Shown piece by piece: positions 534-38,200 of a stretch of 64,000 bases of DNA (its first letter is position 1; every line of letters begins with the position of its first letter). The DNA lies in contig JAUSIH010000037.1 in assembly GCA_030648205.1 (NCBI GenBank), forward strand, positions 3,744 through 67,743, in the 5' to 3' direction. Made by a program: the position numbers and the translations under genes. The DNA is from Dehalococcoidia bacterium. GTDB lineage: Bacteria; Chloroflexota; Dehalococcoidia; JAUSIH01. Under the pieces are notes generated by a model. That model did not search any database, was not told the DNA's origin, and saw nothing but the letters and a program-made list of their open reading frames with translations.

Positions 534-1745
534 ATGGGGCTTGACCTCTCCCGGACCGCGCGCCACATTGATAGCATGGCGGGCCGTCTCCACGACGGGG
601 CCGCCGACCAGGCCGGACGCCTGACGCGCGCCCGCGCTGTTCTGCATGCCCAGGATGCCCTGCTGGACGGGCTGCGGGAAAAGCTCAAGCGCGGCGGGGA
701 CAAGGTCAAGTTCCGGGTGGCGGGCCTTTCCGACGGTCTCGCCGCCCGCCACGCCGCGCCGAGCGCCCCGTCCGACTACGTGGCCCTGGGCGCCGACGGC
801 TCGCAAATCGAGGCCGACAGGCATACGCCCGCCGCATGCTTCCTGCTCAACATCGGCACGGTGTCCCTTCGCTATGGCGCGGCCCCCGGCGCCAGCCTGG
901 ACAGCGTCCCCCTGCTGCTCGCGGACGCCGCGGACCTGGAGGTGCGCGACCCCTCCAGCAGCCGGAGCGAGCGACTGGAGGGGCCGCTTCTGGGCGTGCG
1001 CCGGGCCATCGAGGAGCACAAGGCCCTGCTGGAGCTGGCGCGCCGCGCGCCCCCGGAGCTTCCGGTCGTGGCGCTGCTGGACGGTTCGCTGGTGCTGTGG
1101 ACGCTGGCGGAACAGGCCTACCCCGAGTTCGTGCGCGAGACGCTGCTGGACAAGGCGCTGCTGCCCGTCCTGGACGAGTTCGCCGCGCTGGCCCGGTCGC
1201 GGCCTCTGGCCCTTGCGAGCTACATCAGCTATCCTAGGAGCACGGACGTCGTCAACGCCCTGCGCGTCGCCGAGTGCCCGTACGCGCCGCCCGACTGCGA
1301 CCGCCACTGCTCCGGGATGGGCGCGTTCCAGCGCAAGTGCGACAAGGTGGGCGGCGTCCTTGACCGTGACCTGTTTAGCGGGCTGCTGGCCCCAGGCGAG
1401 CGCTCCGCCCTGTTCGATATCACGTCCAAGATCGTGCAGCGGTACGGGCGGCACGCGGTGCGGTTCTTCTACCTGAACGTGGGGAACGAGATCGCGCGGG
1501 TGGAGATGCCCCAGTGGGTGGCGGACTCGCCGCGCCTGCTGGACCTGGCCCACGGCCTGGCGCTCGACCAGTGCCGGCGCGGGCGCGGCTACCCGGTGTC
1601 CCTGTCGGAGGCGCACGAGCAGGCCGTGGTCCATGAGCCGGACCGCCAGCAGTTCTGGCATCTGGTGGAAAACGCCCTGGCCCGGCGCGGCATGCGCTCG
1701 GACACGTCCGCGAAGAACGTGAGCAAGAGGACGCGATGGCTATGA
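534..1745 (+). CDS. NurA-like 5'-3' nuclease
   Basis: 403 aa. 'YVALGADGSQIEADRH' matches NurA motif I (xDGS) and a second 'LLDGSLVLW' follows. It lies upstream of a HerA-like ATPase gene. Confidence 0.55.
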   Translation: MGLDLSRTARHIDSMAGRLHDGAADQAGRLTRARAVLHAQDALLDGLREKLKRGGDKVKFRVAGLSDGLAARHAAPSAPSDYVALGADGSQIEADRHTPAACFLLNIGTVSLRYGAAPGASLDSVPLLLADAADLEVRDPSSSRSERLEGPLLGVRRAIEEHKALLELARRAPPELPVVALLDGSLVLWTLAEQAYPEFVRETLLDKALLPVLDEFAALARSRPLALASYISYPRSTDVVNALRVAECPYAPPDCDRHCSGMGAFQRKCDKVGGVLDRDLFSGLLAPGERSALFDITSKIVQRYGRHAVRFFYLNVGNEIARVEMPQWVADSPRLLDLAHGLALDQCRRGRGYPVSLSEAHEQAVVHEPDRQQFWHLVENALARRGMRSDTSAKNVSKRTRWL

Positions 1746-2830: not shown

Positions 2831-3721
2831 ATGAACATCGGCGTGATAGGAACGGGCAGAATCGGCTCGCGCATGGCGGCGAACCTGCTGAAGGCCGGCC
2901 ACAAGGTGTTTGTGCACGACGTCAGGAGAGAGGCGACGGACGCGCTCGTCAAGGCGGGCGCCGCGTGGGCGGACACGCCCGCCCGCGTCGCCGCGGCCAG
3001 CGACATGACCATTGCGTCGCTGCCCGGCCCTGCTGAAGTCGAGCAGGTCGCGCTGGGACAGGACGGCGTACTCGCCGGAGCGCGGAAGGGCCATATCTAC
3101 ATTGATACGACAAGCAGCTATCCCAGCCTGATACAGCGCATAGCGGCGGAGGCGGATAAGAAGGGCGTGCAGGTGATTGATGCGCCTCTGACGGGCGGCA
3201 CATCGGGCGCCGAAGCGGGGACGCTCATCTTCATCGCGGGCGGGTCGAAGGAGGCGCTGGAGAGGGCGCAGCCGATTCTGAGTGTGCTCGGCAGGAAGGT
3301 CTTTCACATGGGGCCGAGCGGCTCCGGCAACGCCGCGAAGCTGGTCAACAACATGCTCGGCCAGATAGAGGTCTATGCCTTCGCGGAGGCCCTGGCCTTG
3401 TCGGCGAAGTTTGGCCTGGACCTCAAGCAGGTTGTGGAACTGCTCAGCAGCGGGCAGACCGGCAGCGGCATCCTCACCCAGTTCTACATGAGCAAGGGGC
3501 TGAAGGGAGACTTCGAGCCGGGCTTTACCGTGGACCTGGCGTTCAAGGACCAGACACTCATTGCACAACTTGGCAGGGAGCTTGGCGTGCCGCTCTATTT
3601 CAACGCGCTTGTCCTTCAGAGGATTGCCGATACGCGCGCCCGGGGCTTGGGGTCGAAAGACCACACGGCGGCTATCATTCCGCTGGAGGAACTGCTCAAG
3701 GTCAAGATCAGGGTCGAGTAG
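2831..3721 (+). CDS. NAD-binding 3-hydroxyisobutyrate / 6-phosphogluconate dehydrogenase-family oxidoreductase
   Basis: N-terminal Rossmann motif 'MNIGVIGTGRIGSRMAANLLKAGHKV'. The 296-aa length and C-terminal helices match the HIBADH family. SD 'ggaaggaaaacgagag' precedes the ATG. Confidence 0.8.
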   Translation: MNIGVIGTGRIGSRMAANLLKAGHKVFVHDVRREATDALVKAGAAWADTPARVAAASDMTIASLPGPAEVEQVALGQDGVLAGARKGHIYIDTTSSYPSLIQRIAAEADKKGVQVIDAPLTGGTSGAEAGTLIFIAGGSKEALERAQPILSVLGRKVFHMGPSGSGNAAKLVNNMLGQIEVYAFAEALALSAKFGLDLKQVVELLSSGQTGSGILTQFYMSKGLKGDFEPGFTVDLAFKDQTLIAQLGRELGVPLYFNALVLQRIADTRARGLGSKDHTAAIIPLEELLKVKIRVE

Positions 3722-3820: not shown

Positions 3821-5467
3821 ATGAATAAGCAAGACGTGAACAAGGACGGCGCGCAGGCCCAGCGGCTCGGCGCGGTCGTCGGCGGATCGCTCGGCGAGGG
3901 GCTGGACGTCCACCTGGACGCCGACGTCTCAGTGGAGGACGTCAAGGTTGGCCGCTTCGTTACCATCCAGGGCCAGAAGCAGCGCTTCTTCGGCGTGGTG
4001 ACGGACGTGGCCCTGGCCTCCGCCGACCAGCGGCTGTCCGCCATCCCGCCGGACGCCAGCGACCCCTTCATCGCGCAGGTGCTGGCGGGCACGGGCGCGT
4101 ACGGCCTTATCACTGTCACGCCCATGCTCACCCTCGGCGGCGGCATCGCGGGCATCGAGGGGCCGCAGCCGGTCAAGACGGTGCCGTCGCACTTCTCGGA
4201 GGCGCGCACCGCCACGGACGCGGACGTGGAGCTGGTCTTCGGGCGCGAGGACGAGCACCATTTCGTGGTGGGCACGCCGCTGGACATGGAGACCAGGGTC
4301 TGCCTGGACCTGCACGAGTTTGTGAAGCGGAGCAACGGGGTCTTCGGCAAGAGCGGCACGGGCAAGAGCTTCCTCACGCGGTTGCTGCTGATTGGCATCA
4401 TTCAGAAGCAGGCGGCGGTCAACCTCGTCTTCGACATGCACAACGACTATGGGTGGGAGGCGCCCCGCGAGGGCGGCCCGCCCGTCAAGGGCCTGAAGCA
4501 GTTCGCCCCGGGCAGGGTGGCCGTGCTGACCCTCGACCCCGAGAACGCGCGCCGACGCCGCGTGTCCACGGACGGCGATGTCCAGATTGGCTTTGAGGAT
4601 GTGCAGCCGGAAGACATCGCCATGCTGCGCGAGACGCTCAACCTCACGCCGCTGGCGGCCCAGTCCGTGTACCGGCTGGTGAAGCGCTTCGGCTCGAAGA
4701 AGTGGTTGGGGGAGTTTCTAGCGCTGGACGCGGAGGGCGTGAACGCGCTGGCCGCCGAACTCGGCGAGCACGAAGGGACGCTCCACAACCTGAGGCGGGG
4801 CCTCGACCGGCTAGGCCGCATGGGCTTCCTGGCGCCGCGCGCTCCGGTGGACTCGGTGCAGACCATCCTGTCCAACCTCCAGCAGGGGAAACACGTCGTG
4901 CTGGAGTTCGGGCGGTACGGCGAAGACCTTGCCGCCTACGTCCTCGTCGCCAACATGCTGACCCGGCGCATCCGCGAGCGCTACGTGCATCTGATGGAGC
5001 AGGCCCAGGGCGATAGGGGCCAGATGCCCCGGCCCGTCGTCATCACCATTGAGGAAGCGCACAAGTTCCTGAGTCCCGAGGTGGCTGGCATGACCGCCTT
5101 CGGGACCATTGCACGGGAAATGCGCAAGTACAACGTCACCCTGCTGGTGGTGGACCAGCGTCCCAGCGGCATTGACGAGGAGGTCATGTCGCAGATCGGC
5201 ACCAAGATCACCTGTCTGCTGGACAACGAGCGGGACATTGACGCGGTGCTGACGGGCGTCTCCGGCAGCCGGGAGCTGCGCGGCGTCCTGGCCAAGCTGG
5301 AAACGAAGCAGCAGGCGCTCATCTTCGGGCACGCGGTGCCCATGCCCGTGGTCATCAAGACACGGGAGTACGGCACCGCCAAGTCCTACGCGGAGCTGAA
5401 GTTCGCGGACGCCTCTCAGTTGAAGCGCGCCGCCGAGGATGACATAGACCTGTTTCCCAAGCAGTAG
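3821..5467 (+). CDS. HerA-like (FtsK/HerA superfamily) ATPase
   Basis: N-terminal HAS-barrel-like region ('VKVGRFVTIQGQKQRFFGVVTDV'). Walker A 'FGKSGTGKSF', Walker B 'VVITIEEAHKF' and the HerA C-terminal 'LLVVDQRPSGIDEEV' are present. Confidence 0.75.
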   Translation: MNKQDVNKDGAQAQRLGAVVGGSLGEGLDVHLDADVSVEDVKVGRFVTIQGQKQRFFGVVTDVALASADQRLSAIPPDASDPFIAQVLAGTGAYGLITVTPMLTLGGGIAGIEGPQPVKTVPSHFSEARTATDADVELVFGREDEHHFVVGTPLDMETRVCLDLHEFVKRSNGVFGKSGTGKSFLTRLLLIGIIQKQAAVNLVFDMHNDYGWEAPREGGPPVKGLKQFAPGRVAVLTLDPENARRRRVSTDGDVQIGFEDVQPEDIAMLRETLNLTPLAAQSVYRLVKRFGSKKWLGEFLALDAEGVNALAAELGEHEGTLHNLRRGLDRLGRMGFLAPRAPVDSVQTILSNLQQGKHVVLEFGRYGEDLAAYVLVANMLTRRIRERYVHLMEQAQGDRGQMPRPVVITIEEAHKFLSPEVAGMTAFGTIAREMRKYNVTLLVVDQRPSGIDEEVMSQIGTKITCLLDNERDIDAVLTGVSGSRELRGVLAKLETKQQALIFGHAVPMPVVIKTREYGTAKSYAELKFADASQLKRAAEDDIDLFPKQ

Positions 5468-5542
5468 CAAGCGGTGCGCTGGCAAGAGGGATTCGCGGCG
5501 CGCCGCCAAGCAAGAATACTGACGACGCATAAGGAGGCATGT

Positions 5543-6673
5543 ATGCAAGCTCTGGTCATCGGCGGGAGCGGCCCGACGGGCCCGTTCATCATCAACGGGC
5601 TGCTGGCCCGGGGCTATCAGGTCACGGTGCTGCACCGCGGCTTTCACGAAGTGGAGTACGACAAGCCGGTAGAGCACATTCACACGGACCCCTACTTCCC
5701 GGAGCCGGTGAAGCAGGCGCTGGGCGACCGTCGCTTTGACGTCGCCATCGTCACCTACGGGCGGACCCGCCACATCGCGGACATCCTCGCGGGCAGGGTC
5801 AAGCACCTGCTGACGGCCAGCGGCTCGCCCGCCTACCTGGGGTGGCTGGACCAGAGCCAGGCGCCCAACGGGCGGCTGGTCGGCCCTCTGCGCGAGGACG
5901 ATCCCGTTGTCCGCGACCCCAGCGTCAACAAGTTGTGCTCGCTGGTCGTCGCGACGGAAGACAGCATCCTTGAGCATGGCAAGAAGGGCGACTTCCAGAC
6001 GACCATCTTCCGCTATCCGAACATCTACGGGCCGCGCATGCTCAACCCCCGCGAGTGGTGCGTCGTCCGCCGCGTCCGCGACGGGCGCAAGTTCATGATC
6101 CTGCCCTTCGGCGGCATGACCTTCCACGAGCGGACCTACGCGGAGAACGCCGCCTACGCCTTCATGCTGGCCGTGGAAAAGCCCTTGGCCGCGAACGGGC
6201 AGATTTACAACCTGGCCGAGGAGCGCAAGTACAGCCTGCGCCAGGTGGTGGAGGTCGTGCTGGAGGTCATGGGGGCCAAGATGGAGTTCCTGGACCTGCC
6301 CTGGGACTGGGCGGAGGCGGGAAAGCCGTTCATCCGGCACTGGCACCACAAATTGCTGGACAGCACCAAGCTCCGTCAGCAGCTTGGCTACACGGAGTTC
6401 GTTCCCACCGCGGAGGCGATGCGCAGGACGGTGGAGTGGTACGTGAAGAACCCGTTGAAGCCGGGCTGCGAGGAGGAGAAGACCCTGCAGGACGCCTTCG
6501 ACTACGCGGCGGAGGACAGGGTGTATGCGATTTGCAAAGAGACGTCCGCCAGACTGGCGGAAGCGTACCAGTCCAAGTTCGCCTGGCGCCACACGTACGA
6601 GCACCCGAAGGAGGTGGGCGAGAAGCGCTACGAGCAGGGATCGGCTCCAGGCAAGGGAAAGCAGCCGTCGTAA
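5543..6673 (+). CDS. atypical NAD(P)-binding (epimerase/NmrA-like) protein, paralog of 33109..34254
   Basis: 'MQALVIGGSGPTGPFIINGLLARGYQVTVLHRGFHEVEY'. SD 'aaggagg' lies 5 nt upstream of the ATG at 5543. About 50% identical to the protein at 33109. Confidence 0.65.
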   Translation: MQALVIGGSGPTGPFIINGLLARGYQVTVLHRGFHEVEYDKPVEHIHTDPYFPEPVKQALGDRRFDVAIVTYGRTRHIADILAGRVKHLLTASGSPAYLGWLDQSQAPNGRLVGPLREDDPVVRDPSVNKLCSLVVATEDSILEHGKKGDFQTTIFRYPNIYGPRMLNPREWCVVRRVRDGRKFMILPFGGMTFHERTYAENAAYAFMLAVEKPLAANGQIYNLAEERKYSLRQVVEVVLEVMGAKMEFLDLPWDWAEAGKPFIRHWHHKLLDSTKLRQQLGYTEFVPTAEAMRRTVEWYVKNPLKPGCEEEKTLQDAFDYAAEDRVYAICKETSARLAEAYQSKFAWRHTYEHPKEVGEKRYEQGSAPGKGKQPS

Positions 6674-6715: not shown

Positions 6716-7780
6716 GTGAGGTCCGTCATGGCGACCCGCGCCCGCGTCCTGGACGTCCAGGACGACCTTGAGGTCATCAACGAGTACGCCTATGAGCAGG
6801 GCTGGACGGACGGCCTGCCGATTGTTCCGCCCACCCCTGCGCGCGTGAACGCGATGATGCGCGCCGTGGACCGCCGTCCGGATGACGTGGTGGCCCACCT
6901 GCCGCCGCTACGGGCCGCCGCGACGGTGGAGAAGATAGCCATCAGCGCCGTCATGGCGTGGTGCAAGCCGGAGTACTTCCCCGTCGTGCTCGCCGCGGTG
7001 GAGGCCGCCGCGGACCCGCGTCTGTGCATTATGGCCATGAACACGACAACGAACCCCACCGTGCCGTTCGTGCTCGTGAACGGGCCTGTGCGCAACGACA
7101 TAGACCTGAACTGCTCGTGGAGCGTGCTGGGGCCGCGCAAGCGCGCCAACGCGACGATTGGCCGCGCTCTCAGCCTCATCATGATCAATTTGGCGGGTCG
7201 TTTGCCGGAGCAGACGTGCAAGGCGACGTGGAAGATGCCGGGCGCGTTCACCATGTGCGCGGGTGAATACGAGGAGGAAAGCCCCTGGGAGCCTTTCCAT
7301 ACAGACCGGGGCTTCAAGAAGGACGAGAGCACGGTCACGCTCATGTCGCCCGTCTCCGCCGTGAACATCGTGGACAATGAGAGCCAGACGCCGGACGAGC
7401 TGCTCGCCAACATCAACGCGGGCATGTTGGGCGCGGGCAGCAACAACGTCTTTCCTTTCTACGGCATCGGGAACATGGGGCTGATGCTCTGCCCCAACCA
7501 TGCACAGCTTCTGGCCCGGCAGTACACTCGGCGACAGCTCCAGGAGCACTTCCTGACTCACCTCAGGCTGCCTGCGTCGTACCTCAGCCCCCGGCGCGTG
7601 GCGATGATGAAGTCGGCGGACCTGGGGCAGATTGAGGACGGCTATGTGCGGTACGCCGCCCGCGCCGACCAGTTCCTGATCTTCGTGGCGGGCGGACTCG
7701 GCGGGCTGCATTCCGGATTCTTCCCCACGCTGGGCGACTCCAAGGCGGTGACGTACCCCATCCGCCTGCCCGACAGATAG
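6716..7780 (+). CDS. uncharacterised conserved protein, 'GWTDGLPxVPPT' family, paralog 1
   Basis: 354 aa. Shares 'EQGWTDGLPIVPPTPARV...AISAVMAWCKPEYFPVVLAAVEA...VNGPVR...IGRA' with the ORFs at 7800 and 11769. Confidence 0.6.
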   Translation: MRSVMATRARVLDVQDDLEVINEYAYEQGWTDGLPIVPPTPARVNAMMRAVDRRPDDVVAHLPPLRAAATVEKIAISAVMAWCKPEYFPVVLAAVEAAADPRLCIMAMNTTTNPTVPFVLVNGPVRNDIDLNCSWSVLGPRKRANATIGRALSLIMINLAGRLPEQTCKATWKMPGAFTMCAGEYEEESPWEPFHTDRGFKKDESTVTLMSPVSAVNIVDNESQTPDELLANINAGMLGAGSNNVFPFYGIGNMGLMLCPNHAQLLARQYTRRQLQEHFLTHLRLPASYLSPRRVAMMKSADLGQIEDGYVRYAARADQFLIFVAGGLGGLHSGFFPTLGDSKAVTYPIRLPDR

Positions 7781-7799
7781 ACCGAATCGCGGGACGAGG

Positions 7800-8867
7800 T
7801 TGCGCATGGACCTTCAGTCACAGCGCGTGGAGACGGCGGGCGCCGACGATGCGATAGAGCTGTTCTTCGATAAGGGGTGGACGGACGGCCTGCCGGTCGT
7901 GCCGCCCACGGCGGAGCGGGTGGAGCGCATGATCGCCGCCGGTGGCCGTGGGGCGGATGAGCTTGTCGGCCTCATTCCGCCCAAGGGAAGCGCCGGTACG
8001 GTCGAAAAGCTGGCCGTGAACGCCGTGATGGCGGGCTGCAAGCCGGAGTACTTCCCCGTCGTCCTTGCCGCAGTGGATGCGATGCTCGCCCCCGAGTTCA
8101 ACTGGAACGGCGTCGCCACCACGGCGCACATCGCGTCGCCGCTCGTCATCGTGCACGGCCCTGTGCGCAAGCGCATTGGCGTGAACTGTGGCTGGGGGGT
8201 CTTCGGCAACGGGTGGCGCGCGAACGGGACCATAGGGCGCGCGGTCGCCCTCATCATGTGGAACCTGGGGGGCGCCATCCCCGGCGAGACCTGTCGCAAG
8301 ACCATGGGTCACCCGGGCAAGTGGAGCTACTGCATCGGCGAGAACGAGGAGGTCAGCCCGTGGCCGCCGTTCCACGCGGAGCGGGGATTCAAGCCGGAGC
8401 AGAGCGCGGTGACGGTCTTCGGGTGCGAGGCGCCGCACGGCGTGCGCTCGGTGGGCGACGCGAAGGCCGTGATGTACAGCATTGCCAGCGCGTACTCGAC
8501 CATTGCGAACAACAACATAGCGTACATGGGCCAGGCGCTGGTGGTCGTCGGCTCCCTCTGTGCCGAGGTGTTCAGGAACGAGAATTGGTCCAGGCAAGCG
8601 GTGCAGGAGTTCATCTGGCAGCACGCGCGCCTGCCCGTGGGCGTGGTGGACGGAAGCGGCACGTACTCCGAGGGGCTGGAGCACCACTTCTGGCCGCAGT
8701 GGGTGGACAGGAAGAATCCCCGCGATCTCGCGCCCATCACGAAAAGGCCGGAGGACATCCACGTGCTGGTGGCCGGCGGCTATGGCCGCTCGTGCGCCAT
8801 CTGCCCTGGCTGGGGTGAATTCGGCGGTTTCGCGGTCACGCGGGAGGTCCGGCTGGCTTCCCGCTAA
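7800..8867 (+). CDS. uncharacterised conserved protein, 'GWTDGLPxVPPT' family, paralog 2
   Basis: 355 aa. 'DKGWTDGLPVVPPTAERV...NAVMAGCKPEYFPVVLAAVDA', collinear with paralogs 1 and 3. Confidence 0.6.
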   Translation: MRMDLQSQRVETAGADDAIELFFDKGWTDGLPVVPPTAERVERMIAAGGRGADELVGLIPPKGSAGTVEKLAVNAVMAGCKPEYFPVVLAAVDAMLAPEFNWNGVATTAHIASPLVIVHGPVRKRIGVNCGWGVFGNGWRANGTIGRAVALIMWNLGGAIPGETCRKTMGHPGKWSYCIGENEEVSPWPPFHAERGFKPEQSAVTVFGCEAPHGVRSVGDAKAVMYSIASAYSTIANNNIAYMGQALVVVGSLCAEVFRNENWSRQAVQEFIWQHARLPVGVVDGSGTYSEGLEHHFWPQWVDRKNPRDLAPITKRPEDIHVLVAGGYGRSCAICPGWGEFGGFAVTREVRLASR

Positions 8868-8901
8868 ACCGGCCAGCCGCCAACCGCGCAGCGCCGAGAA
8901 A

Positions 8902-8940
8902 CGAAGGAGCGCCCCTCCGAGGGGCGCTCCTTCGTTCTGC
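8902..8940. terminator. bidirectional intrinsic terminator (perfect palindrome 'cgaaggagcgcccctc/cgaggggcgctccttcg')
   Basis: A 16-bp perfect inverted repeat lies between convergent genes (7800..8867 + and 8953..10704 -), followed by 'ttct'. Confidence 0.6.
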
Positions 8941-8952
8941 CGGGACCTGGCG

Positions 8953-10704
8953 TTAGCGGCTTATCCAGACCTTGTCCATCTTCAGATTGTCGTAGAGACC
9001 GTTGCCCGGCTCGTAGTCCCGCACTTCCTTCCACCAGGCGCGGTAGTACAGGTCCCAGTAGGACACAATGTAACCGCCGAGTTCAATGATGCGCAACTGC
9101 ATGTTGCGGACGATCTCCTTGCGCTTCGCTATGTCCAGCGTCCGTGTCTGCTGATCGTACATCGCGTCAATCTGCTTGTCGCTGAACGAGCCGAAGTTCC
9201 GAGAGCCGTCCGTCACGTAGAGCGCCGCGAAGGTCGGGTCGGGGTCGTCCATCGGCTCCGCGAGACCCCACCAGGCTGAATCGAAGGTCTTGTTGTTCAG
9301 ACGATCGAAGGCCGGCCCTTGCTCCTGCAGGTCTAGCTGTACGTCAATGCCGACCTCCGCAAGCTGCTGCTTGATAACGGGCCCCAGGCGGCCTGAGCCG
9401 CCGATGCGGTTGAGCATCACCGTCTTGGCGCCTTTGCCGTAGCCCGCGTCCGCGAGCAGTTTCTTGGCGGCCGCAATGTCCTGGGTCTTGTCCGGCCGAT
9501 AGCCGGGCAATTTGATCAGGTCATCTGGCGTAAGTCCCCAGACACCCTGAGGGTTTAGCGCCGCTCCTATCACGCCACCACCGCCGCCGGCCTTGAGCAT
9601 GTTCTGGCGGTCCAGCGCCAGTTGAACGGCCTGTCGGACGCGCACGTCCTTCCAGGGGTCGCGGGTCATGTTCATGAAGAAGACCGTGCGGGCGAGCGCC
9701 GGGTGTTCGGCGAGAGTGACGGTGCTGGCCATCTCCGTCCGGACGGTGTCCGCCTGGGTGGGCGACAGCGCGCGTGATGCGATGGTTGTTATGCGCACGC
9801 GGCCCGCGCGGAACGCCGCGAAGCGTGTGTTGTCGTCGCGGATGATGAAGAAGGTCAGGCCATCCATGTAAGGCAGGCCCTTGTCCCAGTAATTCGGGTT
9901 CTTCTTCATCTGAATGCTGACGTCACGGTCGTGCCTGGCCCACGTGAAGGGCCCCGTGCCGTTCACCACGCGCTTCATGTCACCGTTGTTTGCCAGAAGG
10001 GTGTGCTTGGGCATCATGAGGATGTTGTCCGTGGCCATGCCGCGCAGGAACGAGGCGCTGGAGAACTTGAGGGTCACGCGGACCGTGGAGGCATCTACCG
10101 CCTCGGCCTTGCTCATCGCGGCAAGGAGCGCCTCTCCCCGCGGGCTGATGGTCTTGAACTCCTGAGGGCGCGCCATGCGGGACAGGCTATAGACGACGTC
10201 TTCCGAGGTGAACGGCTTGCCATCGTGCCAGGTCACGCCCTTGCGCAGGCGGAAGGTATAGACCGTGCCGTCCCCGTTGACCTCCCAGCTCTCAGCAAGC
10301 TCCGGCACCACCTCACCGTGGTTCTTGTAGTGGTACTTGACCAGGCCGTCGTACACGTTGCGGAGCGGGGCGAGCGAGCTGACCGATGTCTGCTCAGCTA
10401 TGTCGTAGTTGGGCGGGTCCTCAAAGTGAGCTACGTTGAGGATGCCGCCGCTGGTGGGCTGCGCGCCGCCCGCGGCAGGCACGGGCGCGGGCGCGGAGGT
10501 CGGTGGGCGGGGCGTCGGCGAAGCGGCGGTCGCCGGCGCGGACGGTGCGGTGGGCACAGCGGTGGGCCGCGGTGCGGCAGTCGCCGCGGGCGCAGCGGGC
10601 GTGGGCGCGGACGGCGCGGGCGCAGCGGCTGGCGCGCACGCTCCGGCGAGGAACGCCAGGGCCAGGACGGCTCCTGATAGACGGTGCAAACTAGATAGTC
10701 TCAC
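8953..10704 (-). CDS. ABC transporter substrate-binding lipoprotein, family 5 (peptide/nickel type)
   Basis: SBP_bac_5-like body ('NVAHFEDPPNYDIAEQTSVSSLAPLRNVYDGLVKY'). Likely GTG start at 10704 with SD 'aagaggaggg', giving signal plus lipobox 'LAFLAGAC'. The longer ORF to 10860 is probably an over-extension. Confidence 0.75.
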   Translation of the reverse strand: MRLSSLHRLSGAVLALAFLAGACAPAAAPAPSAPTPAAPAATAAPRPTAVPTAPSAPATAASPTPRPPTSAPAPVPAAGGAQPTSGGILNVAHFEDPPNYDIAEQTSVSSLAPLRNVYDGLVKYHYKNHGEVVPELAESWEVNGDGTVYTFRLRKGVTWHDGKPFTSEDVVYSLSRMARPQEFKTISPRGEALLAAMSKAEAVDASTVRVTLKFSSASFLRGMATDNILMMPKHTLLANNGDMKRVVNGTGPFTWARHDRDVSIQMKKNPNYWDKGLPYMDGLTFFIIRDDNTRFAAFRAGRVRITTIASRALSPTQADTVRTEMASTVTLAEHPALARTVFFMNMTRDPWKDVRVRQAVQLALDRQNMLKAGGGGGVIGAALNPQGVWGLTPDDLIKLPGYRPDKTQDIAAAKKLLADAGYGKGAKTVMLNRIGGSGRLGPVIKQQLAEVGIDVQLDLQEQGPAFDRLNNKTFDSAWWGLAEPMDDPDPTFAALYVTDGSRNFGSFSDKQIDAMYDQQTRTLDIAKRKEIVRNMQLRIIELGGYIVSYWDLYYRAWWKEVRDYEPGNGLYDNLKMDKVWISR

Positions 10705-11151
10705 AAACCCTCCTCTTGATACGGCCCTGTTCAGGGCCGTCCCCCCAAAAACACTTGGGGTAGGATAATATGCCGCAGATTCAAAGTCAAGCCCTGGCCG
10801 CCTTGCGCACGGAGGAGAGCGGAGCGGACTTCGTGCATCAGGCAGGCGGCAAGTCGACACAGGCTATCCAGAGGCCTTGACAGTCCATGTGTCCGCGCAT
10901 ACGATACGCTTTGGCCTCGCAGGATTGGGTTGCGCGCCGCGGCCTGCTCCTTCGCCTCGCCACGACGCAGCGCCGCCACTGTTATCGGGTGCGGACTTGC
11001 GGAGCGGTGTACGCATGCGATAAAGGCAACTCCAGGAGGACTGGACTCGCGGATTGGACAAAGCTCTGGACGGTGTCAGGGCGCCTGGGTGGCGCCCGGT
11101 GGTGGCAGGCCCCCTTTTCCCCTCGGTCGGACCGAGTGACAAGGAGCACAT

Positions 11152-11712
11152 ATGGCGAAGATACGATTGCTCCAGCCGGTGGCGCCCGAGCCGCAGGCTG
11201 CCTCGAAAGTCAGCCCGCGCCTGACCGATGGCGTGCGCGGCAAGCGGCTGGGCTTCCGCGTTTACTGGCCTCGCTTTGCTCTGTTTATGGAGAAGGCCGA
11301 GCAGGTGTTGCGCGAGCGCTATGGCATCGGCTCGGTGAACCGGATCGAGGGGCTGGTGACGCAGAACATCACCGTCTATGGAAAACAGAAAGAGGAGTGG
11401 GCGGCCTGGCAGCAGAGCAGCGACGCCGCCATTCTGGGCCTGGCTGCCTGAGGGTCGTGCACATCCTGGCTTGTCCAGGACGTGATTGACACCGAAAAGA
11501 AGGGTATTCCCACCGTCATGGTGGTGACCGAGGAGTTCGTGGAGCTGGCGAAGGCGGCGGCGCGCGCCCGCGGCTATCCCGACCTCCCCATGGTGGTGCT
11601 GCCACACCCGTTCGAGACGAAGTCCGCCGAAGAGGTCGAGAGGATAGCGGTGGAGAAGGCGGACGAGCTGGTGCGGAAGCTGACGGCCCCGCTGTCGCCC
11701 GTGCGGGCCTAG
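11152..11712 (+). CDS. UGSC-family selenoprotein (in-frame TGA = Sec at 11449-11451)
   Basis: ORFs 11152..11451 and 11482..11712 are in the same frame, separated only by TGA. Read-through gives '...ILGLAA-U-GSC-TSWLVQDVIDTEKKGIPTVMVV...'. A hairpin at 11457-11484 starts 6 nt after the TGA, like a bacterial SECIS. Confidence 0.6.
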
Positions 11713-11768
11713 GCGCGACGCCGCTCTTTTTCCGCTGGGAGTTGATGACGGAGCAGCAGGACTGACAC

Positions 11769-12824
11769 ATGTCTTCACTACAATTGCGCTCGCCGATCGT
11801 GGAGGCCGAGGACGACCTGGATGGCGTCTTCGCCGAGTATTATCGAAAAGGCTGGACGGACGGCCTGCCCATCGTCCCGCCCACGGAGGCGCGCGTGCGC
11901 CGGATGATAGAGGCGTCTGGACGCTCGCCGGACGAGGTGGTCGGGGTGTTCCCGCCGCGCCAGGCGCAGGGAACGGTGGAGCAGATAGCGGTCAACGCCG
12001 TCATGGCCGGGTGCCTGCCGGAGTACCTCCCCGTGGTGCTCGCCATCGCCGACGCGATGACCGACCCGGGCTTTGATCTCTTTTCGCTCAACACGACCAC
12101 CAATGCGGTCGCCATCCTGACCGTGGTCAACGGCCCCGTCCGCCAGCAGCTTGACATCAACTGCAGCTACGGCCTCCTTGGGCCGGGCTGGCGCGCCAAC
12201 GCGACCATCGGGCGGGCGGTGCGGCTGGTGCAGACGAACATCGCGGGTGCGCTGCCGGGGCCGGTCAGCAAGTCCACGCATGGACAGCCCGGACGCTACG
12301 CCATGTGCTTCGGCGAGTTCGAGGAGAAGAACCCCTGGGAGCCGCTGCACGTGGAGCAGGGGTTCAAGCGCGAGGAGAGCGCCGTCTCCCTGTTCACCGC
12401 GCAGGGCACGGTCCCCATCACCGAGTCGCGCACCCGGACGGCGAAGGCGCTCATCCACTTCATCGCGCACTGCATGGACATCGTGGGCACGAACAACATG
12501 CTGTCGGGGCATCCCGGCGATTCGCTGCTCATCCTGTGCCCCGACCATGCGGCGATCATCGCGCGGGACGGCTACTCGAAGAAGGCGCTCCAGGAGGCGC
12601 TCTTCGCGAAGACCAACCGGATATCGCTGAGCCGCTGGCCGGAGGACAAACACGAGGAACTTCTGAAGAACCGGAAAGCCACAGGGCGGTTCGTGTCCCT
12701 GCACGACGGCCCCGCCAACTTCCGCATCGTTGTCGCCGGGGGGCTTGGCGGCATCCATTCGACCTGGGTCCCCACCTACGGCCATTCGGTCGCCATCACC
12801 AGGCGAATCAAGGCTGGAAGCTAG
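11769..12824 (+). CDS. uncharacterised conserved protein, 'GWTDGLPxVPPT' family, paralog 3
   Basis: 351 aa. 'RKGWTDGLPIVPPTEARV...NAVMAGCLPEYLPVVLAIADA'. Confidence 0.6.
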   Translation: MSSLQLRSPIVEAEDDLDGVFAEYYRKGWTDGLPIVPPTEARVRRMIEASGRSPDEVVGVFPPRQAQGTVEQIAVNAVMAGCLPEYLPVVLAIADAMTDPGFDLFSLNTTTNAVAILTVVNGPVRQQLDINCSYGLLGPGWRANATIGRAVRLVQTNIAGALPGPVSKSTHGQPGRYAMCFGEFEEKNPWEPLHVEQGFKREESAVSLFTAQGTVPITESRTRTAKALIHFIAHCMDIVGTNNMLSGHPGDSLLILCPDHAAIIARDGYSKKALQEALFAKTNRISLSRWPEDKHEELLKNRKATGRFVSLHDGPANFRIVVAGGLGGIHSTWVPTYGHSVAITRRIKAGS

Positions 12825-13104: not shown

Positions 13105-13974
13105 ATGGCTTACCAGTACATCCTCTACGGGGTCGAGAACCGGATAGCGACCATCACGTTGAACCGTCCGGAGAAGATGAACGCGGTGCATGACGCCATG
13201 CGCGCGGAGATCAGCGCCGCATACGCGGACGCGGCCAAGGACGATGCAGTCAAGGTGGTCATCCTGAAAGGCGCCGGGACGTGCTTTTCGGCGGGCCACG
13301 ACCTGCAGGCGGTGGGCCGGCCCTACGGGTTCAACGACGGGCGCACGGAGGAGGAGCGCAGCCGGCGCCCCAGCCAGCGCGTCCGCCTGCGCCGCGACCG
13401 CTGGATAGCGGAAATCTGGCGGGACATCCTCGTCCACCCCAAGATCACCATTGCGCAGATACACGGCCACTGCCTGGGCGGCTCAAGCCTTATGCAGCTC
13501 TGCTGCGACGTCGCGGTCGCCGCTGAGGACGCTACCCTGGGCCACCCGGAGTACCGGCTGGTCGGCCCCAAGGTAAGCCTGCTCCAGATGCTCATCATGG
13601 GAATGCGCCGCGCCAATTTTGTGTGCTACACGGGCCGCAAGTTCACGGGCAGGGAGGCGGAGCGCCTCGGCCTCGTCAGCCTGGCAGTCCCCGCCGACAA
13701 GCTGGAGGAGGAAGTGCGGACCATGGCCCAGTCCTTCGCCCAGTTCCCCGCGGACGGCATTGCCATCGGCAAGGCCATCACGCACCAGGCGCTGGAGGCG
13801 CTGGGGGTCACCAAGGCGTTCAGCCAGTGGTACATGGGCCACACGCTGGGGACCAACATCCAGTTTGAGCAGGAAGACCACAACTTCTTCCGCGAGCGCC
13901 GGGAGAAGGGCACCAAGACCGCCTTCCACGAGCGCGACGCGCGGTTTGACAAGCTTGGCAAGGCGAAACGCTAG
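13105..13974 (+). CDS. enoyl-CoA hydratase/isomerase (crotonase) family protein
   Basis: 'YILYGVENRIATITLNRPEKMNAV...ILKGAGTCFSAGHDL' is a crotonase-fold signature. SD 'gaaaggagac' precedes the ATG. Confidence 0.8.
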   Translation: MAYQYILYGVENRIATITLNRPEKMNAVHDAMRAEISAAYADAAKDDAVKVVILKGAGTCFSAGHDLQAVGRPYGFNDGRTEEERSRRPSQRVRLRRDRWIAEIWRDILVHPKITIAQIHGHCLGGSSLMQLCCDVAVAAEDATLGHPEYRLVGPKVSLLQMLIMGMRRANFVCYTGRKFTGREAERLGLVSLAVPADKLEEEVRTMAQSFAQFPADGIAIGKAITHQALEALGVTKAFSQWYMGHTLGTNIQFEQEDHNFFRERREKGTKTAFHERDARFDKLGKAKR

Positions 13975-14182: not shown

Positions 14183-15259
14183 GTGTTTATCTTCGACACC
14201 ATGCTGGGGCGCGACTACGAGCAACTGGTCGTGTGCACTGACAAGGCCTCGGGCCTACGCGCCTTCATTTGCATTCACGACACCACCCTTGGGCCGGCGT
14301 TGGGCGGAGTCCGCATCTGGCCCCACAAGACGGAGGAGGACGCGCTGACCGATGTGCTGCGGCTTGCGCGCGCCATGACGTACAAGGCGGCGGCGGCGGG
14401 ACTCTCGCTGGGCGGCGGCAAGGCGCTCATCATGGCCGACCCGCGCCGCGACAAGAGCGAGGCGCTGCTGCGGGCGTACGGCCGGTTCGTCGAAGCGGTG
14501 GGCGGCCGCTACATCACCACCGAGGACATGGGTAGCACCACGGACGACATGGAGATTATCGCCACGCAGACGCGCCACGTGATCGGCCTGCCCGTGGCGC
14601 AGGGCGGCAGCGGCGACCCGTCGTCCATGACAGCCTACGGCGTTTTTCGCGCCATGCAGGCGTGCGCGAAGGACGTCTGGGGCAATCCCTCCCTCCAGGG
14701 ACGCACGGTGGCCGTGCAGGGCTTCGGCAAGGTAGCCTCCAATCTGGCGGCGCATCTGAAAAGGGACGGAGCGCGGCTTATCGTGACCGACATCAACGAG
14801 CAGGCGGCGGACAGGGCGCGCCGCGAGTTCGACGCGCGGCTGGTCGCGCCTGACGACGTCTTCGATGCCGCGTGCGACATCTTCGCCCCTTGCGCTCTGG
14901 GCGGCGCTTTGAACGACACCACCATCCCGCGCCTGCGCTGCAAGGTGGTCTGCGGCGGCGCCAACAACCAGTTGGCGGAGGACCGACACGGTGAGGGGCT
15001 GATGAAGCGGGGCATCCTGTACGCGCCTGACTTCATCGTCAACGCGGGCGGCGTCATCAACCTCAGCGTGGAGCTGATGCCGCTGGGCTACAACGAGGAG
15101 ATGGCGCGGGAGCGCACGTCGCGCATCTATGGGACGCTGGAGAAAGTCATCGCCGTCAGCAAGGCGGAGGGCATCCCCACCAGCCGCGCCGCCGAACGCC
15201 TGGCGGAAGAGCGCGTCGGCGGGGCGCGTGCGGTCAAGCGCATCTGGCTGCCTCACTAA
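14183..15259 (+). CDS. Glu/Leu/Phe/Val dehydrogenase family (leucine/valine dehydrogenase-like)
   Basis: 'GPALGGVRIWP...AAAGLSLGGGKALIMADP' is the ELFV dehydrogenase catalytic Lys region. C-terminal Rossmann 'VAVQGFGKVASNLA'. The start could be the ATG at 14201. Confidence 0.8.
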   Translation: MFIFDTMLGRDYEQLVVCTDKASGLRAFICIHDTTLGPALGGVRIWPHKTEEDALTDVLRLARAMTYKAAAAGLSLGGGKALIMADPRRDKSEALLRAYGRFVEAVGGRYITTEDMGSTTDDMEIIATQTRHVIGLPVAQGGSGDPSSMTAYGVFRAMQACAKDVWGNPSLQGRTVAVQGFGKVASNLAAHLKRDGARLIVTDINEQAADRARREFDARLVAPDDVFDAACDIFAPCALGGALNDTTIPRLRCKVVCGGANNQLAEDRHGEGLMKRGILYAPDFIVNAGGVINLSVELMPLGYNEEMARERTSRIYGTLEKVIAVSKAEGIPTSRAAERLAEERVGGARAVKRIWLPH

Positions 15260-33060: not shown

Positions 33061-33108
33061 GGTATCCTGAACACGCTGCCCGGCGCAACGGGCTGAACGG
33101 AGAAAGAG

Positions 33109-37830: not shown

Positions 37831-37903
37831 CGCGTCCTTGCCCGAGTGGCGCAATGGCAGCGCAGCCGATTTGTAATCGGCAGGTTAGCGGGTTCGAATC
37901 CCC
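37831..37903 (+). tRNA. tRNA-Thr (anticodon TGT)
   Basis: Acceptor 'gcccgag/ctcgggc', anticodon arm 'gccga-ttTGTaa-tcggc' and T-loop 'ttcgaat'. One C-C mismatch in my T-stem fold. CCA is not encoded. Confidence 0.6.
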
Positions 37904-37997
37904 TCTCGGGCTTTTCTCACTATCGGGAGGGGGTCTGAGCAAAGCTGTGCGCCCGCTGGCAGAGACGCAAATCGTGTGGTAAACTAGACCCTCATAC

Positions 37998-38085
37998 GGA
38001 GGGGTGGGTGAGTGGTTAATACCAGCAGGCTGTAAACCTGCCGCCCTGACGGGCTGCGTAGGTTCGAATCCTACCCCCTCCACCA
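37998..38085 (+). tRNA. tRNA-Tyr (anticodon GTA), type II with long variable arm, CCA encoded
   Basis: Acceptor 'ggagggg/cccctcc', anticodon loop 'ctGTAaa', variable arm 'gccgccctgacgggctgc' and T arm 'gtagg-ttcgaat-cctac'. Confidence 0.85.
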
Positions 38086-38124
38086 TAGAAGAAGCGGAAG
38101 AGGTAATCCCAGGCACAGAGTCGG

Positions 38125-38200
38125 GCCCTCATAGCTCAGCCGGTAGAGCACGGTCTTGGTAAGACCGGGGTCACCAGTTCGAATCTGGTTGAGGGCTCCA
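38125..38200 (+). tRNA. tRNA-Thr (anticodon GGT), CCA encoded
   Basis: Acceptor 'gccctca/tgagggc', D arm 'gctc-agccggta-gagc', anticodon arm 'cggtc-ttGGTaa-gaccg' and T arm 'accag-ttcgaat-ctggt'. Confidence 0.85.

What the first reader, a model, noticed from the sequence alone, without database searches (positions are those of the whole stretch)
6716..12824. Triplicated unknown protein family ('GWTDGLPxVPPT...NAVMAGC(K/L)PEYxPVVLA') flanking an SBP_bac_5 binding protein and the UGSC selenoprotein
Three ~355-aa paralogs share a strongly conserved N-terminal third, including an invariant Cys in 'AVMA(W/G)C(K/L)PEY'. Two are adjacent (6716, 7800) and one follows the selenoprotein (11769). I cannot place the motif in a characterised family from memory. 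The repeated co-localisation with a thiol/selenol redox protein and a peptide/nickel-type substrate-binding lipoprotein suggests a functional island (catabolism or reductive processing of an imported substrate?).
Basis: seen in the sequence. Interest (0 to 1): 0.6.

Follow-up and report, generated by a model that had tools for sequence, protein, structure and literature searches.

The report
Unnamed partner of UGSC selenoprotein
Three copies of a large, unnamed protein family sit in this region, and the family proves to be the near-constant gene neighbour (often fusion partner) of the UGSC selenoprotein, whose function has been unknown since 2007; together they probably form a thioredoxin-driven reductase.

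Summary
Three paralogs of about 352 aa (6716-7780, 7800-8867, 11769-12824, all on the + strand; 36-43% identical, E 1e-60 to 1e-90) lie around an SBP_bac_5 gene on the minus strand and a UGSC selenoprotein gene (11152-11712, in-frame TGA at 11449).

The family matches no Pfam or NCBIfam model and no PDB sequence. A confident AlphaFold model (pLDDT 93.6) has no significant Foldseek match in the PDB. The family is nevertheless large: 7,932 representatives at 50% identity.

Its defining property is its link to UGSC:
- In 58 of 80 genome loci found through the family, a UGSC gene lies within 300 bp on the same strand.
- In 70 of 70 evaluable metagenome loci found through UGSC alone, a family gene lies within 500 bp.
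- The two are fused in both orders.

Other fusions or operon neighbours are thioredoxin reductase, thioredoxin, the ferredoxin:thioredoxin reductase catalytic chain and a Redoxin domain. UGSC is a weak homolog of the Sec region of glycine reductase selenoprotein B.

Best reading: the family is the substrate-binding or catalytic subunit of a thioredoxin-system-fed selenol/thiol reductase for small organic acids. The substrate is unknown. The SBP_bac_5 link holds only in this lineage.

The parts
5474..6673 (+). 399-aa extended-SDR/epimerase-like NAD(P)-binding protein, 43 nt upstream of paralog A; a possible operon partner. Not conserved next to the family elsewhere.
   Evidence: Pfam Epimerase E 3.6e-11, partial match. 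A 39%-identical paralog lies at 33097-34248. A homolog appears in only 1 of 80 related loci.
6716..7780 (+). Paralog A of the unnamed family ('orphan': no adjacent UGSC gene). Motif AVMAWCKPEY.
   Evidence: no Pfam or NCBIfam hit.
7800..8867 (+). Paralog B of the unnamed family ('orphan'), 20 nt after paralog A. Motif AVMAGCKPEY.
   Evidence: no Pfam or NCBIfam hit. Natural tandem family::family fusions of about 710 aa exist elsewhere.
8953..10860 (-). SBP_bac_5 (Dpp/Opp/Nik-type) ABC substrate-binding protein with a long low-complexity N-terminal linker. The true start is probably downstream of the longest ORF start.
   Evidence: PF00496 E 1.7e-78. Below every NCBIfam equivalog cut-off. An SBP_bac_5 gene plus permeases also sits beside the 77%-identical ortholog of paralog C.
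11152..11712 (+). UGSC-family selenoprotein (186 aa including Sec100). An AAGGAG ribosome-binding site precedes the ATG.
   Evidence: In-frame TGA giving AAUGSC. PF24696 127 bits. NF041046 95 bits, and weak GrdB/GrdF similarity.
11449..11451 (+). TGA codon read as selenocysteine.
   Evidence: Protein homology continues on both sides of the codon. The aligned codon is TGA in 76 of 79 homologs, TGC in 2 and TGT in 1.
11452..11493 (+). SECIS-like hairpin just downstream of the UGA (core stem-loop 11460-11484, apical loop CUUGU).
   Evidence: Local fold -20.3 kcal/mol, z -2.9 on the 48-nt segment. Equivalent hairpins follow the UGA in most of 77 homologs (mean z -1.7, 53 of 77 below -1). No Rfam family matched.
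11769..12824 (+). Paralog C of the unnamed family, the canonical UGSC partner; starts 57 nt after the UGSC stop codon.
   Evidence: AlphaFold model pLDDT 93.6, pTM 0.93. The UGSC-then-family order on one strand is the commonest arrangement elsewhere (45 of 80 loci).
13105..13974 (+). Crotonase/enoyl-CoA hydratase family protein downstream of paralog C; probably part of this lineage's substrate pathway.
   Evidence: ECH_1 E 2.6e-40. ECH_1 also lies in the ortholog's locus and in 10 of 80 related loci.
14183..15259 (+). Glu/Leu/Phe/Val-type amino-acid dehydrogenase. Membership of the island is uncertain.
   Evidence: ELFV_dehydrog_N and ELFV_dehydrog. Similar to Trp dehydrogenase ScyB at 366 bits, below the cut-off of 600. 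Found in 1 of 80 related loci.

Best explanation
The three paralogs belong to a very large protein family of about 350 aa that has no family model. This family is the partner subunit of the UGSC selenoprotein. The functional unit is the pair. UGSC is predicted to have a flavodoxin-like fold and carries a U-G-S-C selenol/thiol couple at the start of a helix. The family protein carries a near-invariant Cys (C82 in paralog C, between two helices) and conserved Asp, Asn, Arg and Glu residues (GWTDGLP..PPT, RANATIGRA, GE.EE).

Proposed mechanism:
1. Electrons enter from NADPH through thioredoxin reductase and thioredoxin, or in some lineages from ferredoxin through an FTR-type domain.
2. They reduce the UGSC selenenylsulfide.
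3. The selenolate then either attacks a substrate held by the family subunit or resolves an adduct or oxidised form of its Cys.
4. The substrate is reduced and the Se-S bond re-forms.

The substrates are probably small organic acids or their CoA esters, and they probably differ between paralogs. In this window, UGSC with paralog C (11152-12824) is a canonical pair. Paralogs A and B are extra copies without their own UGSC gene. They may form a heterodimer, or borrow the single UGSC protein.

Shown: the paralogy, the absence from known families, the adjacency in both search directions, the fusions, and the Sec usage. Inferred: physical complex formation, the direction of electron flow, the role of C82, and the substrate class.
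For: Link to UGSC:
- In 58 of 80 genome loci found through the family, a UGSC gene lies within 300 bp on the same strand (45 upstream, 13 downstream), and 65 of 80 have one within 1.5 kb. L021 has three UGSC-family pairs in tandem.
- In the reverse test, 76 metagenome loci were found with a UGSC-only pattern. Seventy have a family gene within 500 bp, five have flanks too short to judge, and one had no confirmable UGSC hit.
- Fusions occur in both orders: UGSC::family (P0152, P0163, P0171 and P0172 with CGSC; P0058 and P0060 called after the TGA) and family::UGSC ending at the TGA (P0134, P0149, P0183, P0228). Of 38 family members with an N- or C-terminal extension beyond the ~350-aa domain, 24 carry PF24696.

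Link to disulfide-reducing machinery:
- Family::thioredoxin-reductase fusions (Pyr_redox_2, CAVC motif) occur in at least 26 clusters, plus divergent ones at 37-40% identity.
- UGSC::family::FeThRed_B fusions exist.
- An AhpC-TSA/Redoxin domain replaces UGSC in P0222 and P0256.
- Operons in cultured organisms: trxB-trxA-family-UGSC in Arthrobacter; trxB...family-UGSC in Variovorax; family-UGSC-trxB in Roseovarius; UGSC-family-TrxB-like in Haloterrigena.

UGSC itself:
- The aligned codon is TGA in 76 of 79 genes, and a SECIS-like hairpin follows it.
- 13 of 22 UGSC proteins independently hit GrdB (TIGR01917, best E 1.1e-5), and some hit GrdF, GrdH or TIGR01918, around the Sec.

Context:
- The fused protein folds with pTM 0.89, which is compatible with a fixed domain arrangement.
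- Neighbours are variable catabolic genes: TctC binding proteins in 18 loci, CoA_transf_3 in 12, ECH_1 in 10, plus acyl-CoA dehydrogenase, PrpD, Amidohydro_2 and SDR. Many genomes carry several copies.
Against: - No reaction, substrate or physical complex has been shown.
- The tools do not expose model coordinates, so the distance between the UGSC Sec/Cys and the family Cys could not be measured.
- The two redox motifs are not strictly co-dependent. P0259 has Ile in place of the family Cys although its UGSC domain keeps CGSC. P0141, P0168 and P0204 have degenerate UGSC motifs while the family Cys is kept.
- About a quarter of family genes, including paralogs A and B here, have no adjacent UGSC gene.
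- trxB-like genes occur in only 3 of 156 genome and metagenome loci, so a dedicated reductase is the exception.
- The GrdB similarity is local and far below the family cut-offs, and Pfam GRDB did not hit.
- The family shows no similarity to GrdE or PrdA.
Confidence: 0.6

Rival explanations
1. GrdE/PrdA-type arrangement. The family is a pyruvoyl proenzyme that cleaves itself at the conserved Gly-Cys (G81|C82) to make an N-terminal pyruvoyl group. This group binds an amine substrate, and the UGSC selenocysteine (a mini selenoprotein B) cleaves the C-N bond reductively, as in glycine, sarcosine, betaine and D-proline reductases.
For: UGSC shows reproducible local similarity to the Sec region of GrdB, GrdF, GrdH and PrdB-type proteins. 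The family has a near-invariant Cys preceded by a small residue. The thioredoxin system supplies electrons, as in glycine reductase. An amino-acid dehydrogenase and a peptide-type binding protein lie in this window.
Against: No member of the family hits the Gly_reductase (GrdE/PrdA) models or any other, even at E<=5-10. In the model, C82 lies in a short turn between two helices (H70-80, H84-97). That suits a helix-capped reactive thiol rather than the strand-loop sites usual for pyruvoyl self-processing (the latter from general knowledge, not tested here). No GrdA, GrdC or GrdD-like genes appeared among the recurrent neighbours. P0259 lacks the Cys.
Confidence: 0.1
2. The family is a non-redox enzyme for organic acids (hydro-lyase, isomerase, decarboxylase or similar). 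Its catalytic Cys or a metal site must be kept reduced. UGSC is only a dedicated activating or repair reductant and takes no part in turnover.
For: Weak Foldseek similarity to enzymes acting on carboxylic acids or cyclic amides: class I fumarate hydratase (E 2.4e-3), Toblerone-fold cyclic amide hydrolases and a PrpD-family epimerase. Neighbours are hydratases, CoA-transferases, PrpD and amidohydrolases. Orphan copies and members with degenerate UGSC motifs exist.
Against: The fold matches are poor (TM 0.18-0.27, rmsd above 12 A). Near-universal use of costly selenocysteine (76 of 79), 70 of 70 adjacency from the UGSC side and repeated covalent fusion to TrxR or FTR domains argue for stoichiometric electron flow rather than occasional repair.
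Confidence: 0.2
3. The pair is a detoxifying or antioxidant reductase of the Msr, Prx or ArsC type. It would act on an oxidised small molecule or protein (sulfoxide, hydroperoxide, disulfide, arsenate or selenite) and would not be a catabolic enzyme.
For: The architecture is a reactive Cys, a resolving Sec/Cys couple and thioredoxin. A Redoxin/AhpC-TSA domain can replace UGSC. Universal stress protein genes lie next to two haloarchaeal loci.
Against: There are many copies per genome and per locus: three here, up to three pairs in L021, and five loci in one Chloroflexi MAG. The genes are consistently embedded in variable transporter, CoA-transferase and hydratase operons under LysR or IclR regulators. 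This pattern looks like substrate-diversified catabolism, not a housekeeping defence enzyme.
Confidence: 0.1

Closest known systems
Glycine/sarcosine/betaine reductase protein B (GrdB/F/H with GrdE) and D-proline reductase (PrdB with PrdA)
   Same: A selenocysteine-containing subunit works with a separately encoded substrate-binding subunit. Electrons come from the thioredoxin system (glycine reductase). UGSC shows weak but reproducible local similarity to the Sec region of selenoprotein B (13 of 22 members).
   Different: UGSC is about 170-190 aa and matches only some 70 residues of GrdB, far below the cut-offs. The partner family has no detectable similarity to GrdE or PrdA. No GrdA, GrdC or GrdD components were seen. 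The hosts are largely aerobic or facultative soil, groundwater and marine bacteria and haloarchaea, not Stickland fermenters.
UGSC-containing selenoprotein (Zhang and Gladyshev 2007/2008; PF24696, NF041046)
   Same: The window's 11152-11712 gene is a member. The 2008 GOS paper reports a 'UGSC/Unknown_1' fusion with a conserved Cys in the fused domain (PMC2398784). That domain is probably this family.
   Different: [quoted passage not shown] Here the predicted fold is flavodoxin-like, and the protein has a near-obligate partner. The identity of 'Unknown_1' could not be verified because the figure panel is held only as an image.
Thioredoxin-dependent Cys-relay reductases (MsrA/B, ArsC, peroxiredoxins) and their natural Trx/TrxR fusions
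   Same: A reactive Cys at a helix start, a resolving Sec/Cys couple, and recycling by Trx/TrxR. Fusion to TrxR-like or Trx-fold domains occurs.
   Different: No sequence or fold relationship to any of them. The catalytic subunit has no significant Foldseek match in the PDB. The genomic context is catabolic, not stress-related.

Membership tests
UGSC family (PF24696 / NF041046), for ORF 11152-11712 | Match to the family model above its curated cut-off | tested here: met
   PF24696 scores 127.3 bits against a cut-off of 25, covering model positions 2-171 of 172. The stricter NCBIfam equivalog NF041046 scores 95.4 bits, below its cut-off of 125.
UGSC family (PF24696 / NF041046), for ORF 11152-11712 | U-G-S-C motif encoded by an in-frame TGA, followed by a SECIS-type hairpin | tested here: met
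   AAUGSC with TGA at 11449-11451. A hairpin lies at 11452-11493. 76 of 79 homologs use TGA. No covariance model for bacterial SECIS elements was available to score the hairpin.
SBP_bac_5 (PF00496), for ORF 8953-10860 (-) | Match to the family model above its cut-off | tested here: met
   264.8 bits against 32.4. No NCBIfam equivalog (DppA, OppA, NikA, GsiB) cut-off is reached, so the ligand is unassigned.
Any Pfam-A or NCBIfam family, for the three paralogs | Any model hit | tested here: not met
   No families at E<=0.01 for the three paralogs. No consistent hit among 48 relatives at E<=10 (Pfam) or E<=5 (NCBIfam). RefSeq names plasmid-borne homologs 'hypothetical protein'.
GrdE/PrdA pyruvoyl proproteins (Gly_reductase), for the three paralogs | Sequence similarity to the family | tested here: not met
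   No Pfam or NCBIfam hit of this kind in 48 members, even at permissive thresholds.
GrdE/PrdA pyruvoyl proproteins (Gly_reductase), for the three paralogs | Self-cleavage at a Cys to generate a pyruvoyl group | not testable with these tools
   A conserved Gly-Cys exists, but cleavage can only be shown by protein chemistry.
Selenoprotein B (GrdB/GrdF/GrdH/PrdB; TIGR01917, TIGR01918), for the UGSC protein | Full-length match above the curated cut-off | tested here: not met
   19.9 bits against a cut-off of 602; only residues 88-165 align, to model positions 335-406. Pfam GRDB is not hit at E<=1.
Selenoprotein B (GrdB/GrdF/GrdH/PrdB; TIGR01917, TIGR01918), for the UGSC protein | Local homology around the selenocysteine | tested here: met
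   13 of 22 UGSC proteins hit TIGR01917 (best E 1.1e-5), 4 hit GrdF, 3 hit GrdH and 3 hit TIGR01918.
Thioredoxin-fold oxidoreductases, for the UGSC protein (as suggested in the literature) | Thioredoxin-like fold | tested here: not met
   In the fusion model, the best PDB matches of the UGSC part are flavodoxin-like proteins: azoreductase, flavodoxin and lumazine synthase (target TM 0.4-0.57, E about 2e-3 and above). These are weak matches and no Trx-fold protein is among the 50 matches listed.
Class I fumarate hydratase, Toblerone-fold cyclic amide hydrolases and MmgE/PrpD, for the three paralogs | Global fold similarity (TM of about 0.5 or more) | tested here: not met

The most novel reading that the evidence does not exclude
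The UGSC-partner pair may be a new class of selenoenzyme whose catalytic subunit has an undescribed fold. It would reduce C=C or C-X bonds next to a carboxylate in di- or tricarboxylic acids or their CoA esters. The route would be a covalent thioether or selenoether intermediate: the family Cys or the Sec adds to the substrate, the other chalcogen cleaves the adduct, and the resulting Se-S bond is recycled by thioredoxin. This would be a cofactor-free, thioredoxin-driven 'ene/alpha-substituent reductase', diversified into many substrate-specific paralogs in aerobic soil, groundwater and marine microbes.
Probability: 0.25. Interest if true: 0.85.

Novelty: new variant of a known kind. Interest (0 to 1): 0.66.

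Why it matters
[quoted passage not shown] This analysis shows three things:
- UGSC almost never occurs alone: 70 of 70 evaluable loci have the partner gene beside it.
- The partner is a huge family without any family model or name (7,932 representatives at 50% identity, no Pfam, NCBIfam or PDB relative).
- Evolution has repeatedly wired the pair to thioredoxin reductase, thioredoxin and an FTR domain.

Together these turn an open question into a direct experiment. The pair exists in cultured organisms: Paracoccus versutus, Variovorax sp. SRS16, Roseovarius sp. THAF8, Arthrobacter sp. ERGS1:01, Sporomusa termitida, Vibrio europaeus and several haloarchaea with Cys forms. It also points to an annotation gap: thousands of 'hypothetical proteins', plus many UGSC fusions that gene callers split at the TGA codon. 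If the pair is a reductase for organic acids, it would extend selenoprotein-B-type chemistry from anaerobic Stickland fermenters to aerobic heterotrophs. It would also help explain why such organisms keep the selenocysteine machinery.

Tried and rejected
Searches that found nothing:
- Pfam and NCBIfam on the three paralogs and on 48 relatives gave nothing.
- A PDB sequence-profile search gave nothing below E 0.18 for the family, and only a spurious designed-protein hit for UGSC.
- Foldseek against the PDB gave no match at E<=1e-3 for the paralog C model or for the fusion model.
- An Rfam scan of the window found only three tRNAs and no SECIS family.

Unavailable or unreadable:
- Model coordinates are not exposed, so the Sec-to-Cys distance in the fused model could not be measured.
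- The 'Unknown_1' domain of Zhang and Gladyshev 2008 could not be checked. The panel is an image and the sequence file is truncated.

Low yield:
- The search for homologous proteins with the UGSC protein returned a single hit, probably because gene calls split the protein at the TGA.

Ideas tested and dropped:
- SBP_bac_5 as a general partner: only 7-9 of 80 loci.
- The upstream epimerase-like gene and the ELFV dehydrogenase as partners: 1 of 80 loci each.
- Dedicated trxB as a universal neighbour: 3 of 156 loci.
- Phosphosulfolactate-synthase-like and aconitase X/DUF126 genes, seen beside some plasmid loci: 0 of 156 loci.
- Orthology of paralogs A and B to the two halves of the tandem fusions: no specific correspondence.
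- A three-Cys Fe-S site, suggested by the class I fumarase similarity: C132 is not conserved.

Full report
**Observation.** The window (about 65% G+C) carries three ORFs on the + strand: 6716-7780 (354 aa), 7800-8867 (355 aa) and 11769-12824 (351 aa).
- They align over their full length. MAFFT gives 39% and 44% identity to the first copy; tblastn gives 36-43% pairwise, with E from 6e-65 to 3e-90. The window has no fourth copy.
- The quoted motifs (GWTDGLPxVPPT, AVMA(W/G)C(K/L)PEY) are present.
- Conservation is not confined to the N-terminal third. It continues through RANATIGRA and GE.EE.(S/N)PW.P.H to about residue 210, and resumes in a C-terminal VAGG motif.
- Between the tandem pair and the third copy lie two genes. 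One is an SBP_bac_5 gene on the minus strand (8953-10860; E 1.7e-78). The other is a UGSC selenoprotein gene (11152-11712, +) with an in-frame TGA at 11449-11451 that gives A-A-U-G-S-C.
The one correction is that the binding-protein gene is on the opposite strand.

**The family is not placed anywhere.**
- None of the three paralogs hits Pfam-A or NCBIfam at E<=0.01.
- Scanning 48 diverse relatives one by one at E<=10 (Pfam) and E<=5 (NCBIfam) gave only scattered single chance hits.
- A profile of the family finds nothing among PDB sequences below E 0.18.
- AlphaFold2 with a 48-sequence alignment gives a confident alpha/beta model (pLDDT 93.6, pTM 0.93). Foldseek against 350,542 PDB chains finds no match at E<=1e-3. 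The best hits are class I fumarate hydratase (E 2.4e-3, TM 0.27, rmsd 16 A) and Toblerone-fold cyclic amide hydrolases (TM about 0.2).
- The family is large. An exhaustive HMMER search finds 7,932 representatives at 50% identity with E<=1e-3, of which 2,516 have E<=1e-30.
- It is taxonomically broad: Chloroflexota, Beta-, Alpha-, Gamma- and Deltaproteobacteria, Methylomirabilota/Rokubacteria, Binatia, Poribacteria, Actinomycetota, Bacillota and haloarchaea.
- Every source name seen for stand-alone family members is 'hypothetical protein'.

**The conserved link is to UGSC, not to the binding protein.**
- I fetched 80 genome loci through the family alone and searched them with the window's proteins.
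- 66 of the 80 contain a UGSC homolog. In 58 it lies within 300 bp on the same strand (45 upstream as here, 13 downstream), and in 65 within 1.5 kb. L021 carries three UGSC-family pairs in tandem.
- For the reverse test I fetched 76 metagenome loci through a UGSC-only peptide pattern. Because the pattern starts with Cys, it selected Cys-form proteins. Seventy have a family gene within 500 bp on the same strand, five have flanks too short to judge, and one had no confirmable UGSC hit.
- So UGSC essentially always has this partner, while about a quarter of family genes are 'orphans' like paralogs A and B.
- By contrast, SBP_bac_5 appears in only 7-9 of the 80 loci, and the upstream epimerase-like gene and the ELFV dehydrogenase in one each.
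- SBP_bac_5, its permeases, a CoA-transferase and a crotonase do flank the 77%-identical ortholog of paralog C in a related Chloroflexi MAG. The binding protein therefore belongs to this lineage's substrate island.

**Fusions.** Many family members carry extra domains.
- UGSC::family with a full CGSC domain: P0152, P0163, P0171 and P0172.
- UGSC::family called from a Met after the TGA: P0058, P0060 and many proteins of 410-470 aa.
- Family::UGSC that stops exactly at the TGA (profile position 92): P0134, P0149, P0183 and P0228.
- Of 38 family members with an N- or C-terminal extension beyond the ~350-aa domain, 24 carry PF24696.
- Family::thioredoxin-reductase-like flavoprotein (Pyr_redox_2, CAVC motif): at least 26 clusters at 64-100% identity, plus divergent ones at 37-40% identity and 92-97% coverage.
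- UGSC::family::ferredoxin-thioredoxin-reductase catalytic chain (P0264 and one more).
- An AhpC-TSA/Redoxin CxxC domain in the position of UGSC (P0222, P0256).
- Tandem family::family proteins of about 710 aa. These make a dimer of paralogs A and B plausible.

**Operons in cultured organisms.** In annotated plasmids and chromids the pair sits next to thioredoxin-system genes in four of the nine annotated loci examined.
- Arthrobacter sp. ERGS1:01: trxB-trxA-family-UGSC.
- Variovorax sp. SRS16: trxB, then a TTT binding protein, an SDR, the family gene and a CGSC-type UGSC.
- Roseovarius sp. THAF8: family-UGSC-trxB.
- Haloterrigena turkmenica: UGSC-family followed by a TrxB-like protein with a CAKC motif.
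- In the 156 genome and metagenome loci, a trxB-like gene is present in only three. Usually the housekeeping thioredoxin system would have to serve.

**The UGSC protein.**
- The codon aligned with Sec is TGA in 76 of 79 homologs, TGC in two (Sphingomonas and the archaeon Natrialba) and TGT in one.
- A hairpin with a G/U-containing loop starts about 10 nt after the UGA, here (11452-11493) and in most homologs (mean z -1.7; 53 of 77 below -1). It overlaps the conserved CTSWS(V/I)HD codons.
- The window protein, and 13 of 22 homologs tested independently, hit glycine reductase selenoprotein B (TIGR01917, best E 1.1e-5). Some also hit GrdF, GrdH or TIGR01918, over about 70 residues around the Sec. 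Pfam GRDB is not hit.
- In the model of the fused protein P0152 (pLDDT 87.2, pTM 0.89), the UGSC part resembles flavodoxin-like proteins, with the CGSC motif at the start of a helix. This is not the thioredoxin-like fold suggested in the literature, although these matches too are weak (E about 2e-3 and above).

**How it most likely works.** Co-location, co-orientation and fusion in both orders are shown. From them I infer that the two proteins form one enzyme.
- Fusions and operons with TrxR, Trx, an FTR domain and a Redoxin domain suggest that electrons arrive by dithiol-disulfide exchange and reduce the U-x-x-C selenenylsulfide.
- The family subunit supplies a near-invariant Cys in a turn between two helices (C82). 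It also supplies invariant Asp, Asn, Arg and Glu residues that could hold a carboxylate.
- The selenolate would then act on a bound substrate, or on an adduct of C82.
- The neighbours vary but are recognisably catabolic: TctC binding proteins in 18 loci, SDR in 13, luciferase-like monooxygenases in 13, CoA_transf_3 in 12, ECH_1 in 10, acyl-CoA dehydrogenases in 8, Amidohydro_2 in 7, and MmgE/PrpD, MaoC-like and DUF6282 genes.
- Genomes often carry many copies. Both points suggest paralogs specialised for different small organic acids or CoA esters.
- Caveats: the two redox motifs are not strictly co-dependent (P0259 against P0141, P0168 and P0204), orphans exist, and no chemistry has been demonstrated.

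**Comparison with known systems.**
- The closest analogues in mechanism are glycine/sarcosine/betaine reductase protein B and D-proline reductase. Each has a Sec subunit and a substrate-binding subunit, and glycine reductase is fed by thioredoxin.
- UGSC fails membership of selenoprotein B (20 bits against a cut-off of 602), and the partner shows no relation to GrdE or PrdA.
- Cys-relay reductases (Msr, ArsC, Prx) share the logic but neither sequence nor fold.
- The 2008 GOS study noted a 'UGSC/Unknown_1' fusion with a conserved Cys. This is probably the same family, but it could not be verified. Later reviews up to 2026 still describe the functions of this group of selenoproteins as largely uncharacterised.

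**Verdict.** The triplicated protein is a member of a very large family with no name or model that is the near-obligate partner of the UGSC selenoprotein. I rate it a new variant of a known kind: a thioredoxin-fed selenoenzyme with a new catalytic subunit. Interest is about 0.66. Function and substrate are still inferred, but the system is now directly testable in several cultured organisms.

Noticed in passing
window 534-1745 (+) and 3821-5467 (+): A NurA nuclease-like gene (E 2.3e-29) and a HerA/DUF87 ATPase gene (E 3.6e-27) lie upstream of the island. A 3-hydroxyisobutyrate-dehydrogenase-like gene (2831-3721) separates them. A bacterial NurA-HerA pair may be a repair or defence module.
   Followed up: no
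window 5474-6673 and 33097-34254 (+): Two 39%-identical paralogs of an unusually long (381-399 aa) extended-SDR/epimerase-like protein that only partly matches the Epimerase model. One sits directly upstream of paralog A.
   Followed up: partly
window 11452-11493; 76 genome loci with TGA-type UGSC (among L001-L080): The SECIS-like hairpin is built from the codons of the conserved CTSWS(V/I)HD peptide: ACG UCG UGG pairs with CCA CGA. Protein and RNA constraints therefore overlap, which may explain why this peptide is so invariant in Sec forms.
   Followed up: partly
proteins P0122, P0126, P0139, P0181, P0199, P0240: Tandem family::family fusions of about 710 aa. In several, a motif search for the (M/L)AGC-type pattern finds it in only one half or in neither. 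This hints at heterodimers with one catalytic and one degenerate subunit, and may bear on paralogs A (AWC) and B (AGC).
   Followed up: partly
L157 4722-5510 (Arthrobacter) and L158 3889-4356 (Natrinema zhouii): Genes annotated 'phosphosulfolactate synthase' (ComA-like) lie near the pair in two unrelated cultured organisms. None was found in the 156 genome and metagenome loci. A possible hint of sulfonate-type substrates in some subfamilies.
   Followed up: partly
L159 2917-4622 (Sporomusa termitida) and L161 3052-4761 (Vibrio europaeus): In both loci with a fused UGSC::family protein of 561-574 aa, aconitase X and its DUF126 small subunit lie next to it. An FAD oxidoreductase (Sporomusa) or an enolase-family gene (Vibrio) lies immediately downstream.
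   Followed up: no
L158 8057-8890, L164 7053-7904; also L010, L018, L045, L049, L055: A DUF6282 protein (amidohydrolase-like) directly follows the pair in two Natrinema plasmid loci (L158, L164). tblastn homologs occur in five more loci, among them the haloarchaeon Natrialba (L049), Robertmurraya (L018), Dehalococcoidia MAGs (L010, L045) and an Acidobacteriota MAG (L055). It may be a subfamily-specific third component.
   Followed up: partly
P0071 residues about 350-430: One family member carries a C-terminal extension with an ACEDC (CxxC) motif that resembles a NifU-like domain. Pfam did not recognise it at E<=0.01.
   Followed up: partly
window 37840-38200 (+): A tRNA cluster: Thr(TGT), Tyr(GTA), Thr(GGT). 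No tRNA-Sec was found in the 64-kb window.
   Followed up: no
loci L001, L003, L004, L021, L040 (one Chloroflexi MAG, JACPQD01): A single groundwater Chloroflexi genome contributes five separate loci with ten family copies in all. This is an extreme paralog expansion of the UGSC-partner system.
   Followed up: no
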